Assembly (NCBI GenBank): GCA_937898875.1
Contig: CALDKM010000013.1
Coordinates: 1-51,236 of the forward strand
Direction of reading: 5' to 3'
Length of the DNA: 51,236 nucleotides
Source: an uncultured Pseudomonadota bacterium
GTDB taxonomy: Bacteria > Pseudomonadota > Gammaproteobacteria > Burkholderiales > Casimicrobiaceae
Position numbers and translations under genes: made by a program. Position 1 is the first letter of the stretch; each line of letters begins with the position of its first letter. The notes beneath the pieces are model-generated. The model saw only the letters and a program-made list of their open reading frames with translations, did not search any database and was not told the origin of the DNA. Positions 1,790 to 9,417 of this stretch are shown here, one piece after another.

Positions 1790-2476
1790 TCAGTGCTCGG
1801 GACGCGCGAGCTCCGCGAGCGCCTTCGCGTCGAGGACGCGGATGCGCTCGCGGCCGAGCTCGACGTAGCCCCGGTCCTCGAACGAGCGCAGCAGGCGCGT
1901 TACGATCTCGCGTACGCTGCCGAGCTCGTCTGCGATCGCCTGGTGCGTCGCGTGGATCGTCGATTCGTCCCTGTCCCTGCGCACGAGCAGCGCGGCGAGC
2001 CGCTGGTCGAGCTTCTGATAGGTGATCGCCTCGACGAGCGCGAGCAGCGACGCGAGGCGCTCGCCGAACAGCGAGAACACGTATTCGCGGAACGACGAGT
2101 CCTCGACGACGAGCGCGCGGAAGTCGTCGGGCGGGATCACGGCGAGCTCCACGTCGGACTCCGCGGTGCCGGTCGCCGGGTACTGGGTCCGGCCGAGCAG
2201 GCACGACGACGACAGCACGCAGGACTCGCCCGGGCTCACGCGGTAGAGCTGCATCTCGCGACCGTTCGGGTAGCGCTGGACCACGCGGATCCTCCCGGCA
2301 AGGACGAGCGGAAAGCCCGAGCACGGCTGGCGTTCGCCGAACATCTGCGTGCCGGCGGGGACCTGCCGCAGGATCGCGCGCGACGCGATCCGCTCGAGCG
2401 TTCGCCGGCCGGCGAGCGCGAGCGTCGGGAAGGCCGCGCCGATGCGGTCGGCGAGGGCGGCGGCGGGATCGCTCAT
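1790..2476 (-). CDS. Crp/Fnr family transcriptional regulator
   Basis: cNMP-like beta-roll (GREMQLYRVSPGESCVLSSSC) plus C-terminal HTH THQAIADELGSVREIVTRLL. Confidence 0.93.
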   Translation of the reverse strand: MSDPAAALADRIGAAFPTLALAGRRTLERIASRAILRQVPAGTQMFGERQPCSGFPLVLAGRIRVVQRYPNGREMQLYRVSPGESCVLSSSCLLGRTQYPATGTAESDVELAVIPPDDFRALVVEDSSFREYVFSLFGERLASLLALVEAITYQKLDQRLAALLVRRDRDESTIHATHQAIADELGSVREIVTRLLRSFEDRGYVELGRERIRVLDAKALAELARPEH

Positions 2477-2559
2477 GGCGGGCTCGGGTGTCGGGCGGGA
2501 CCGGCTGGGGATCGAGGATTCTACAATCAGGTCCCGCGCCCGATGCGCGGACACCGCGC

Positions 2560-3219
2560 ATGGACCTCTCCCGACTCGCCCTGCCCGACGCGTGGACGCT
2601 CGCCTCGTGGATCGTCGCGCTGCCGCTCCTGGCGCTGGCCGCCTGTAAGGTCCGTTGGCGTGAGGTCGCATCCGGGCCGGCCGCGCAGGTCTGGCCCGCG
2701 GCCCTCGCCGCGCTCGTCGCGCTCTGGAGCATCCGCGGCAGCGTCGAGCCGCACTTCGCGTTCCACCTGTCGGGCATCGCCGCGCTGGCGCTCGCGAGCG
2801 GGCCGTGGCTCGCGCTGGTCGGCGGCGCCGTCGTCGTGGCGGTGACGCTCGCGCTCGGCGGCGCGCCCTGGGCGAACGCGGGGATCGCGTGGCTCGCCGG
2901 CGTCGCGCTGCCCGCCGGCGTCGTGCTCGCGGTCCTGGCGACGACCCGGCGCCTGCTTCCCCCCAACTTCTTCGTCTATGCGATCGTCGTCGCGTTCTTC
3001 GGCGGGGCGGCCTCGTACCTCGCCACCGGCATGGCGGGCGCCGCGGTGCTGGTCGGCGCCCTGGGCGTCCCCGCGGGTCTCGCGTTCGGCGACTACCTGA
3101 TCTACGTCGGGACGCTCGCATTCGGCGAGGCGACCCTGACCGGCATGCTGATCTCGCTGGGCGCCGTCTACCGACCCGCCTGGGTCGCGACGTTCGACGC
3201 GGACCGCTATTTCGGCTGA
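2560..3219 (+). CDS. Energy-coupling-factor S-component-like membrane protein (CbiM/NikM-related)
   Basis: About 6 hydrophobic helices, with FHLSG, LPPNFFVY, FGEATLTG and YRPAWVATFD motifs typical of this proteobacterial family. Confidence 0.75.
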   Translation: MDLSRLALPDAWTLASWIVALPLLALAACKVRWREVASGPAAQVWPAALAALVALWSIRGSVEPHFAFHLSGIAALALASGPWLALVGGAVVVAVTLALGGAPWANAGIAWLAGVALPAGVVLAVLATTRRLLPPNFFVYAIVVAFFGGAASYLATGMAGAAVLVGALGVPAGLAFGDYLIYVGTLAFGEATLTGMLISLGAVYRPAWVATFDADRYFG

Positions 3220-3298
3220 CCGGGGGGCAGCGCCCGGTGCGAATCCGGGGTAGGGATCGCGAGGAACGACCTCGCGGCGCCCGGGCAGGGGGGCACAA

Positions 3299-8900: not shown

Positions 8901-9154
8901 TCGACTTCGTCAACCTGCAGGTCGCGAAGGGCGTCCCGCTCGAGCGCGCGGTCGTCGACGCGGCCGCCGCGCGGGCGAAGCCGATCGCGCTCACGGGGCT
9001 GGCCGCGATGGCCGGCGCGATGTTCATCCTCGACGACCCGATCTTCAGCGGGCTCGCGATCTCGCTCGTGTTCGGCATCCTGGTCTCGACGCTGCTCACG
9101 CTCGTCGTGATCCCGGTGCTCTACTACTCGGTCAACCGTCGCGCGAGCGCCTGA
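5930..9154 (+). CDS. RND efflux transporter permease subunit (AcrB/AcrD/AcrF superfamily)
   Basis: 1074 aa. PREEEPQI, IGILVDDAIVVVENI, GIIVRNSILLVDF, RAKPIALT. Confidence 0.95.
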   Translation: MNETQALGLSGRMARYFLHSRLTPLVGIVAMLLGLFAVAVTPREEEPQIDVTMANVFVSFPGASAGDVERLIAIPAEQVLSQIQGLDHVWSVSKPGQAMITVQYKVGVSRNDAVVRLHETILSHRDWLPPELGVGEPLVKPKGIDDVPIVAITLHAKDAATGASDLQRVAHAVETELKRVPGTREVTTIGGPGREVRVELDPAKLAAHGLDVSAVRNVLQAANVALPAGDLVRGNATVRVDAGGFLASARDVRDLVVAVHGGQPVFLSDVATVVDGPPQPAHYAWYVPGKAGGGGATEVGVAVPAVTIQVTKKAGENAVDVAARVERRMSELADTVMPQGIGVAVTRDYGRTADDKAKLLISKLLFATLSVVALVFVALGRREAAIVGIAVLLTLAATLFASWAWGFTLNRVSLFALIFSIGILVDDAIVVVENIHRHRALDPQASLAELIPVAVDEVGGPTILATFTVIAALLPMAFVSGLMGPYMSPIPINASMGMLISLGVAFSITPWLALRFSPKGARADHGPGRLDRALASGFSRLLEPFVDPERGSRRRVLLGTGIVAAIVLSVSLAAVQWVVLKMLPFDNKSEFQVIVDLPAGSPVEATAAALADLAAHVATLDEVTDVQAYAGTASPINFNGLVRQYELRTLPEQGDLQVNLVDRRHRSRQSHGIALAVRPALEAIGKGHGAKVKVVEVPPGPPVMSPIVAEIYGPDEAGRHAFAKSVREVFGRTPHVVGIDDSIEDAAPRLHVRIDQRKAAMVGVTPADAVATLRAALAGESVTALRDGQAKYGVPVRLALAPEKQTRLETLLALTVRGTGGAAVPLAEIVHVDPVVRETTRHRKDLLPVTYVFADVAGGADSPLYGMFGMRRAIAEVPTPHGGPYDERFITQPSDPYRAWSIKWDGEWQITYETFRDMGLAYAVGLVLIYLLVVAQFGSYVTPLVIMAPIPLTIIGVMPGHALLGKPFTATSMIGMIALAGIIVRNSILLVDFVNLQVAKGVPLERAVVDAAAARAKPIALTGLAAMAGAMFILDDPIFSGLAISLVFGILVSTLLTLVVIPVLYYSVNRRASA

Positions 9155-9198
9155 CCGCGCCCATCGTCCTTCGTCAACCGCTGCACCAGGGAGTTCTC

Positions 9199-9417
9199 AT
9201 GACCACCGAACGTTACATCCGCGTCCTCGCCGGCCTCGTCGTTCTCCTGTCGCTCGCGCTCGGCGCGCAGGCGAGCCCGCTCTTCGTCAGCGCGAACTGG
9301 CTGTGGCTCACCGCCTTCGCGGGCGTGAACATGCTCCAGAGCGGGTACACGCGCTTCTGCCTGCCGGAGATCGTCCTGCGCAGGCTCGGCGTGCCGTCGG
9401 GCTCGTGCAGCCGGTAG
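9199..9417 (+). CDS. DUF2892 / YgaP-like small membrane protein (second type)
   Basis: MTTERYIRVLAG...WLWLTAFAGVNMLQSGYTRFCLPEIVLRRLG. Confidence 0.88.
   Translation: MTTERYIRVLAGLVVLLSLALGAQASPLFVSANWLWLTAFAGVNMLQSGYTRFCLPEIVLRRLGVPSGSCSR

What the first reader, a model, noticed from the sequence alone, without database searches (positions are those of the whole stretch)
1790..9417. Candidate sulfide-oxidation/sulfane-sulfur export module: SQR inside an RND efflux operon
Seen: gene order DUF2892 - adaptor - sqr - RND pump - DUF2892, with gaps of 7, 35, 7 and 44 nt. Both small membrane proteins carry a Cys after their TM helices (FCPAY, FCLP). No outer-membrane factor, persulfide dioxygenase or rhodanese gene is in the operon. 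Established: SQR produces polysulfide/sulfane sulfur, YgaP-type membrane domains are linked to sulfurtransferases, and RND pumps export hydrophobic solutes. Inference: SQR product is handed via the Cys-bearing DUF2892 proteins to a dedicated RND pump for export. I know of no characterised system of this design.
Basis: partly seen in the sequence, partly recalled or inferred. Interest (0 to 1): 0.85.

Follow-up and report, generated by a model that had tools for sequence, protein, structure and literature searches.

The report
Sulfide-defence efflux pump operon with SQR
A sulfide-oxidising enzyme sits in one gene cluster with an efflux pump and two tiny membrane proteins; the matching pump in Azospira is needed for growth in sulfide, so it likely expels the toxic sulfur that sulfide oxidation leaves, but its cargo has not been measured.

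Summary
Confirmed: DUF2892a-adaptor-sqr (type I)-RND-DUF2892b, gaps 7/35/7/44 nt. Not unstudied: Azospira suillum Dsui_3443-3440 has the same four-gene order (RND 61%, SQR 76% identical) and was published in 2017 as sulfide-induced. In that paper's Bar-seq table only 3 of 33 efflux genes lose at least 1 log2 fitness in H2S: this pump, its adaptor and an unlinked TolC that the main text never mentions. SQR and DUF2892 mutants barely shift. The pump is a distinct RND clade found in 62 of 70 genomes with type I SQR, within 6 kb in 35. Best reading: a TolC-dependent pump that likely exports zero-valent sulfur from any source. The proposed SQR-to-Cys-to-pump relay is unsupported: the Cys is predicted to face the cytoplasm, and sqr's position varies. 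DUF2892a belongs to a separate module: a three-cysteine Crp regulator whose predicted class II box precedes the operon. The scan noted both the pump operon and a Crp of this kind before, on other DNA. Cargo untested.

The parts
1790..2476 (-). Crp/Fnr-family regulator with three invariant Cys (C52, C86, C92) and a CRP-type recognition helix (REIVTR); likely activator of the operon
   Evidence: Pfam cNMP_binding + HTH_Crp_2; three Cys in 30 of 30 aligned homologues; closest solved relative 3dv8 keeps them
2560..3219 (+). CbiM-like membrane protein; probably a local insertion, not part of the module
   Evidence: Pfam CbiM; no homologue in the 80 pump loci, the 29 other Crp loci or the 22 further loci; absent between crp and DUF2892a in same-genus G098 (L140)
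3299..3314 (+). CRP-type palindrome TGTGA-N6-TCACG, centre 3306.5
   Evidence: one of 6 sites with at most 1 mismatch in the 3.94 Mb genome; a box with at most 1 mismatch precedes DUF2892 in 20 of 24 related Crp loci
3336..3341 (+). -10-like hexamer TACAGT, 21 nt after the box: predicted class II promoter, start near 3348
   Evidence: sequence; -10-like hexamers at the same 21-nt spacing follow the boxes before thioredoxin (C75) and OsmC (C436); geometry from established CRP knowledge
3376..3573 (+). DUF2892a, 65 aa two-helix membrane protein (C50 in 36 of 36, C61 in 33 of 36); belongs to the Crp module
   Evidence: within 5 kb of the pump in only 4 of 50 well-flanked loci
3581..4603 (+). RND periplasmic adaptor (MFP); signal-peptide-like N-terminus, no Cys, so no lipoprotein anchor
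   Evidence: TIGR01730 193.6 bits, over cut-off; 42% identical to the adaptor of the Azospira-type locus L085
4639..5922 (+). Type I sulfide:quinone oxidoreductase with C127, C159, C353
   Evidence: 551 bits to solved SQR 3sz0 with all three Cys aligned, 352 bits to 3hyv, about 60 to mitochondrial SQR; 76% identical to L085
5930..9154 (+). RND pump, 1074 aa, of an unnamed clade; proton-relay residues D426, D427, R985, N986, R1015, T1022 invariant; no Cys
   Evidence: Pfam ACR_tran; below all NCBIfam RND subfamily cut-offs; model pLDDT 88.7, TM 0.86 to AcrD/AcrB at 22% identity; 61% identical to L085
9199..9417 (+). DUF2892b, 72 aa two-helix membrane protein with invariant N44, Q47, C54; usual companion of the pump
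   Evidence: within 5 kb of the pump in 38 of 50 well-flanked loci; homologous to the YgaP TM domain 2mpn; 62.5% identical to L085

Best explanation
This cluster encodes a type I SQR, an RND pump with its adaptor and two small cysteine-bearing membrane proteins, and it likely works as a sulfide-induced defence unit in which the pump, predicted to pair with a TolC encoded elsewhere, would expel zero-valent sulfur (polysulfide or S8) from the periplasm and inner membrane. Steps: (1) a three-cysteine Crp protein likely senses sulfide or sulfane sulfur and activates a class II promoter at 3299-3341 (box and geometry seen; activation and signal inferred). (2) SQR oxidises sulfide to polysulfide and reduces quinone (family knowledge; catalytic Cys seen). 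(3) Adaptor, RND and TolC form a proton-driven exporter (fold and relay residues seen; the three-gene requirement under H2S shown for the Azospira orthologues). (4) The cargo is zero-valent sulfur taken from a shared membrane or periplasmic pool, whoever made it (inferred, untested). (5) DUF2892b is a dispensable helper, not an obligatory carrier (inferred from one near-neutral mutant).
For: Orthology: L085 carries all three distinct primer sequences of the published Dsui_3440-3443 deletion, has DAHP synthase upstream like Dsui_3444, and matches in order and sequence. Mean fitness, no stress / 1 mM H2S / spike: RND -0.76/-2.21/-2.69; adaptor -0.81/-2.12/-2.63; TolC Dsui_0405 +0.17/-1.86/-2.07. 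The other 30 of 33 efflux rows shift by at most about 0.6. All four genes are induced by sulfide. The host has RND2-pcm-rhodanese-tolC on C319, syntenic with Dsui_0408-0405. Pump in 62 of 70 genomes with type I SQR versus 63 of 230 without; linked within 6 kb in 35. Of 50 well-flanked loci: SQR 17, ArsR 22, any sulfur enzyme or carrier 23. RND genes next to sulfane-sulfur-sensing ArsR repressors were already tabulated (PMC12423496). The host oxidises sulfur (dsrA, soxY). Excess sulfane sulfur is toxic (PMC9163753).
Against: I found no measurement of the cargo. Deleting the whole Azospira operon left the H2S oxidation rate unchanged, 0.49 vs 0.50 mM/h. The SQR mutant shows little sulfide-specific defect (-0.75/-0.86/-1.17), so coupling to SQR is loose. 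33 of 50 well-flanked pump loci have no sqr within 5 kb, 27 of 50 showed none of the eight sulfur families tested, and 63 of 125 pump genomes gave no type I SQR match. TolC is shared, so its defect could have other causes. RND, adaptor and SQR mutants share a baseline defect of about -0.8 without sulfide that TolC lacks; this is unexplained. In the RNA-seq table most replicate columns differ by fixed offsets (+0.67, -0.80), so I treat induction as a single measurement. The genome samples are skewed to a few families, so the counts are not independent.
Confidence: 0.58

Rival explanations
1. One reading: SQR passes sulfane sulfur to the conserved Cys of DUF2892, which loads it into the pump within a channelled complex.
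For: C54 is invariant in 53 of 53 DUF2892b rows. All 17 well-flanked loci with sqr also have DUF2892b. One clean in-frame RND-DUF2892 fusion exists, P0042. A second, highly induced DUF2892 (Dsui_0042) could mask the mutant. The equivalent Cys159 of YgaP lies near its SCN- site (PMC4730233).
Against: The DUF2892b mutant is near neutral in H2S, and the SQR mutant does not mirror the pump mutant. Charge bias and YgaP homology predict that the Cys is cytoplasmic, whereas RND pumps of this fold load from the periplasm or outer leaflet (established). No alignment column of 67 pumps has a Cys in 30% or more of rows. 12 of 50 well-flanked loci lack DUF2892b, and sqr's position varies. Most apparent fusions look like frameshift artefacts.
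Confidence: 0.15
2. The pump removes a different sulfide-related burden, such as HS- itself, small organic persulfides or sulfur-damaged membrane compounds, rather than inorganic S0.
For: Fitness data show need under H2S, not the cargo. The SQR mutant is little affected. Thioredoxin TrxC, OsmC and AhpD-like genes recur beside the pump, in 8, 5 and 3 of 50 loci.
Against: H2S crosses membranes freely, so pumping it would be largely futile (established). The tight link is to the enzyme that makes S0.
Confidence: 0.15
3. It is a heavy-metal or metal-sulfide exporter, as Mehta-Kolte et al. suggested for the induced pumps.
For: Discussion passage of PMC5358917. Sulfide changes metal availability.
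Against: Far below the CusA/CzcA cut-off (237 vs 701 bits). The structural matches listed are HAE1-type multidrug pumps. None of the seven Azospira pumps annotated as heavy-metal pumps shifts by 1 log2 in H2S. Neighbours are sulfur genes, not metal-resistance genes.
Confidence: 0.06
4. It is a generic multidrug pump that happens to be co-regulated with sulfide genes.
For: Its fold is that of AcrB/AcrD. Many loci lack sulfur genes.
Against: It forms its own long-branch clade (44 rows, support 100) with 329 near-invariant columns. Other multidrug pumps of Azospira show no sulfide effect. The sqr link recurs in several gene orders across the phylum.
Confidence: 0.06

Closest known systems
Azospira suillum PS operon Dsui_3443-3440 (Mehta-Kolte et al. 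2017, PMC5358917)
   Same: Same order adaptor-sqr-RND-DUF2892 with no outer-membrane factor; 42/76/61/62.5% identity via L085; same subclade; sulfide-induced and a Bar-seq hit.
   Different: The window adds DUF2892a, a Crp gene and a CRP box in front. No such box was found upstream in L085, and in Azospira a Crp-DUF2892 pair (Dsui_0043/0042) is a separate locus. The paper did not identify the cargo and does not mention TolC in its main text.
SqrR/BigR/sHdrR-type ArsR repressors next to RND transporters (Li et al. 2025, PMC12423496)
   Same: Links RND pumps to sulfane-sulfur sensing and names them as likely sulfur-compound transporters. An ArsR gene lies near the pump in 22 of 50 loci.
   Different: Only a neighbourhood note, with no transport test in the parts read. 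Here the predicted regulator is a Crp activator, not an ArsR repressor.
AcrAB-TolC / AcrD (HAE1 RND pumps), with the small accessory protein AcrZ
   Same: Same fold (TM 0.86), paired TM4 aspartates, unlinked TolC.
   Different: 22% identity; below the HAE1 cut-offs; Arg where AcrB has Lys940 (AcrB numbering recalled); the adaptor has no Cys for lipidation. DUF2892b is a two-helix Cys protein, unlike single-helix AcrZ (recalled).
E. coli YgaP (rhodanese + DUF2892)
   Same: Both small proteins are homologous to its TM domain (84 for DUF2892b), including the Cys after helix 2.
   Different: No rhodanese domain here; the TM domain stands alone.
E. coli CRP at class II promoters
   Same: TGTGA-N6-TCACA-type box, -41.5 geometry, RExxxR recognition helix (consensus and numbering recalled).
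   Different: An invariant Tyr99 replaces the Arg seen at that position in 4ev0 and 3h3u, and three invariant Cys lie in the sensor domain. The effector is unknown.

Membership tests
Type I SQR (SqrA) | Flavoprotein fold with three conserved Cys, and much closer to solved type I enzymes than to mitochondrial/type II | tested here: met
   C127, C159, C353 aligned with Cys in 3sz0; 551 vs about 60 bits (type assignment of the PDB entries recalled)
Type I SQR (SqrA) | Sulfide:quinone activity, and the membrane side it faces | not testable with these tools
   no signal peptide in the sequence; the side is unresolved
RND superfamily permease | 12-TM fold with two large periplasmic loops | tested here: met
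RND superfamily permease | Proton-relay residues in TM4, TM10, TM11 | tested here: met
   D426, D427, R985, N986, R1015, T1022 invariant in 66 rows; mapping to AcrB numbers recalled
HAE1 named subfamilies (AcrB, MdtB/C, Mex) | Score above the curated cut-off | tested here: not met
   TIGR00915 268 vs 940; NF033617 438 vs 1250
HME heavy-metal RND (CusA/CzcA) | Score above the TIGR00914 cut-off | tested here: not met
   237 vs 701
Tripartite efflux system | Adaptor + pump + outer-membrane factor | tested here: inconclusive
   No OMF in the operon; six OMF genes elsewhere in the genome, including tolC on C319; OMF linked in 12 of 80 loci, the one representative scanned being TolC-family; shared TolC phenotype in Azospira. 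Physical pairing untested.
Azospira Dsui_3440-3443 module | Same gene order and orthologous sequences | tested here: met
YgaP-type membrane sulfurtransferase | Rhodanese catalytic domain attached to DUF2892 | tested here: not met
   65 and 72 aa proteins, PF11127 only
cAMP-binding CRP | Arg in the cyclic-nucleotide pocket | tested here: not met
   Tyr99 in 30 of 30 rows, aligned to the Arg of 4ev0/3h3u; below the CRP cut-off
Persulfide-sensing regulator | Cys modification by sulfane sulfur changes DNA binding or activation | not testable with these tools
   only conservation and a modest Azospira Dsui_0043 phenotype, +0.67/+0.01/-0.76; its orthology was not tested

The most novel reading that the evidence does not exclude
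This clade is the dedicated bacterial exporter of elemental sulfur: a TolC-dependent RND pump with its own cysteine-bearing subunit that clears SQR-made S8/polysulfide and feeds extracellular sulfur deposits, switched on here by an undescribed three-cysteine Crp sulfane-sulfur sensor.
Probability: 0.35. Interest if true: 0.85.

Novelty: new variant of a known kind. Interest (0 to 1): 0.62.

Why it matters
How bacteria move zero-valent sulfur across the envelope is, to my knowledge, unresolved (recalled), and my nine literature searches found no tested exporter of this kind. This pump clade is common (125 of 300 sampled genomes of the phylum). An existing Azospira dataset already singles out pump, adaptor and TolC under sulfide, so the question can be tested directly in a tractable strain. 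If right, it gives RND pumps a new inorganic cargo class and explains a missing step in sulfide detoxification and sulfur deposition. The Crp module may add a new family of reactive-sulfur sensors. The score is held down because the operon and its sulfide link are in print and the cargo is still inferred.

Tried and rejected
Co-fold of DUF2892b with the pump (residues 345-1074 plus 1-60, own alignments) gave no answer: score 0.00, mark 0.32, controls not run; it is not used either way. SQR was not co-folded with DUF2892 or the pump. Fusion search: many PF00873+PF11127 proteins, all single sequences. Of four near-full-length ones inspected, three show out-of-frame-looking stretches and one (P0042) is clean: weak. 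RNA runs: 23 listed, none holding half the words; four laid at 85% were mixtures of relatives and may contain DNA, so no conclusion on co-transcription. The sigma-70 scan found no promoter, and one terminator-like site inside the RND gene at chance level. The Crp gene could not be looked up on the Azospira-type contigs, so orthology of Dsui_0043 stays untested. A CRP box upstream of the adaptor is not general: 1 of 67 loci, the window itself. PMC9143464 had no RND passage; 10.1101/317552 and PMC11267869 were irrelevant. 'SQR inside the pump genes' as a conserved design was rejected: adaptor-sqr-RND occurs in 2 of 80 loci (L053, L069; L011 truncated) plus L084, L085 and L140, and elsewhere sqr lies before or after. 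CbiM-like gene as part of the module was rejected. No PDO orthologue was found in the 93% complete host genome with a three-sequence profile; absence is not shown. 272 unclustered ORFs near the pumps were not scanned against Pfam, so the sulfur-gene counts are lower bounds.
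Full report
Observation. The five genes and the gaps of 7, 35, 7 and 44 nt are as described. Pfam gives YgaP-like TM (DUF2892) for 3376-3573 and 9199-9417, HlyD-type adaptor for 3581-4603, Pyr_redox_2 for 4639-5922 and ACR_tran for 5930-9154. The flavoprotein is a type I SQR: 551 bits to 3sz0 with C127, C159 and C353 aligned (the type label of the PDB entries is recalled). The pump models well (pLDDT 88.7) and matches AcrD/AcrB at TM 0.86 but 22% identity. 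It reaches no NCBIfam RND subfamily cut-off. The relay residues D426, D427, R985, N986, R1015 and T1022 are invariant in 66 rows, so it looks like a working proton antiporter. In a quick tree, 44 such pumps form one long-branch clade apart from four other RND proteins of the host.

Distribution. One search scanned 3 of 64 parts of the genome collection, found 653 relatives and kept the best 80, so these are close relatives (53-70% identity). Of the 50 with at least 5 kb on both sides: adaptor 50, DUF2892b 38, ArsR 22, type I SQR 17 (all 17 with DUF2892b), CsoR-type 8, TrxC 8, rhodanese 8, outer-membrane factor 7, DUF2892a 4, and any of eight sulfur enzyme or carrier families 23 (names). Some rhodaneses are probably housekeeping neighbours. 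In 300 genomes of the phylum the pump was found in 125 and type I SQR in 70. Both occur in 62: within 6 kb in 35, far apart on one contig in 2, and on different contigs in 25. The pump is in 63 of the 230 genomes without a type I SQR match. The sample is dominated by a few families and only two pump candidates were scored per genome. Twenty regions that I chose by hand show the same partners in many orders among pumps of 38-46% identity, while three of them (L131, L135, L136) and L139 show only adaptor and pump. So the link to sqr is real, but its place between adaptor and pump is a local arrangement (2 of 80 loci).

Prior work. Mehta-Kolte et al. 2017 (PMC5358917) describe Azospira suillum Dsui_3440-3443. 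I read passages, section 10 in full, Tables S1 and S4 whole, and selected rows of Table S2 and the proteomics table. One deletion primer retrieved five metagenome loci. L085 holds all three distinct primer sequences, has DAHP synthase upstream as Dsui_3444 is annotated, and matches the window in order and sequence: adaptor 42%, SQR 76%, RND 61%, DUF2892b 62.5%. Mean fitness (no stress / 1 mM H2S / spike): RND -0.76/-2.21/-2.69; adaptor -0.81/-2.12/-2.63; SQR -0.75/-0.86/-1.17; DUF2892 Dsui_3440 -0.08/-0.15/-0.33. The unlinked TolC Dsui_0405 gives +0.17/-1.86/-2.07, and the main text never mentions it. Among the 33 rows retrieved by the terms efflux pump, HAE1, RND, TolC and NodT, only these three shift by 1 log2 or more; the next is about -0.6 (my arithmetic on the table's means). 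This is the signature of a tripartite pump needed in sulfide. The host genome has RND2-pcm-rhodanese-tolC on C319, syntenic with Dsui_0408-0405. Against a catalytic role, deleting the operon left sulfide oxidation unchanged. The RNA-seq table shows strong induction of all four genes, but most replicate columns differ by fixed offsets, so I count it as one measurement. Li et al. 2025 list RND genes beside sulfane-sulfur-sensing ArsR repressors as likely sulfur-compound transporters (preprint passages; PMC12423496 supplement search and file 2 part 2). Searches found no test of the cargo and no description of the Crp subfamily. The library lacks most subscription papers, and bioRxiv supplements are closed.

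The small proteins. They are two different subfamilies (37% identity). DUF2892b has invariant G12, F40, G42, N44, Q47, C54 and G64 and follows the pump. Lys+Arg per sequence average 1.5 (N-terminus), 0.2 (loop) and 3.1 (C-terminus). In YgaP the homologous domain hangs from a cytosolic rhodanese, dimerises and carries Cys159 at the end of helix 2 (PMC4730233 passages; alignment). C54 is therefore predicted to be cytoplasmic. The pump has no conserved Cys: none in the window's pump or in 55 of 66 others. With the near-neutral mutant, this weakens an obligatory Cys relay, although redundancy with Dsui_0042 and few insertions in a short gene leave it open.

The regulator. The gene at 1790-2476 is a Crp/Fnr protein, found in 49 of 200 other genomes of the order. 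In the 29 best other loci, 24 have a DUF2892 gene within 1.5 kb, and 20 of these have TGTGA-N6-TCACA with at most one mismatch within 160 nt upstream. Background for boxes with up to two mismatches is 0.05 per 150 nt. C52, C86 and C92 are invariant in 30 of 30 rows, and Tyr99 stands where 4ev0 and 3h3u have Arg. In the window the box lies at 3299-3314 and is followed 21 nt later by TACAGT, the class II geometry. Only six such boxes occur in the genome. Two of the other five precede a thioredoxin and an OsmC gene, with -10-like hexamers at the same spacing; both families recur beside the pump elsewhere. Crp also heads pump operons in L140 (same genus), L095 and L020. In Azospira a cAMP-binding-protein gene, Dsui_0043, neighbours the most induced transcript, DUF2892 Dsui_0042, and shifts +0.67/+0.01/-0.76 with scatter; its orthology is untested. 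The window thus joins two modules that are usually separate. The host has five other Crp-like genes, so which protein binds the box is inferred.

Mechanism and verdict. Most likely, sulfide or sulfane sulfur activates the Crp protein, SQR removes sulfide, and adaptor-RND-TolC expels the hydrophobic zero-valent sulfur that builds up in the membrane and periplasm, whether made by SQR or by other oxidants (in Azospira, perchlorate reductase). Shown: anatomy, orthology, linkage, and the pump's requirement under H2S in one relative. Inferred: cargo, TolC pairing in this host, Crp activation, and the role of DUF2892b. Excess sulfane sulfur is toxic, and a Cupriavidus SQR (type II, recalled) faces the cytoplasm (PMC9163753 passages); the side faced by this type I enzyme is unknown and matters for the relay idea. 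Earlier notes of this scan reached similar readings on other DNA for both the pump and a cysteine-bearing Crp in Bacteroidota; they are unchecked and not independent support. Verdict: real and widespread, partly published, mechanism open; new variant of a known kind; interest 0.62.

Noticed in passing
window 24293-29021: Molybdopterin oxidoreductase subunit pair followed by soxX, a SoxY-related AACIE-arm protein (TIGR04487, over cut-off), soxZ and soxA: a Sox paralogue cluster rather than the canonical one. A second SoxY is on G000:C230.
   Followed up: partly
G000:C75:14972 and G000:C436:8166: CRP-type boxes 72 nt before a thioredoxin and 105 nt before an OsmC gene, each with a -10-like hexamer 21 nt downstream: a likely regulon of the window's Crp.
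   Followed up: partly
G000:C211:2902-5177; G000:C220:330-1255: dsrA (over cut-off) with a dsrB-like neighbour, and a tusA-dsrE pair: the host is probably a sulfur oxidiser.
   Followed up: no
window 549-1343: Rubrerythrin/ferritin-like protein with a long Lys/Ala/Pro-rich, histone-H1-like N-terminal repeat region.
   Followed up: no
window 10386-12194 (minus): 603 aa protein with a P-loop-like start and a long, probably coiled-coil region; no Pfam or NCBIfam match; lies between two ion-channel genes.
   Followed up: no
window 48441-50809 (minus): Pit-like transporter gene flanked by two genes with similar N-terminal sequences.
   Followed up: no
PMC5358917 Table S2: RND, adaptor and SQR mutants share a baseline defect of about -0.8 without added sulfide that TolC and DUF2892 mutants lack; AhpD-like Dsui_0116 also drops in H2S (-0.41 to -0.95/-1.23). 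Unexplained.
   Followed up: no
L124, L125, L138: Long clusters ArsR-OMF-adaptor-RND-DUF2892b-rhodaneses-DUF302, with sqr following in L124 and L125.
   Followed up: no
L033:6100-11200, L035:6118-11258: tusA-dsrE directly upstream of adaptor-RND in two Ca. Tenderia loci: sulfur carriers in place of sqr and DUF2892.
   Followed up: no
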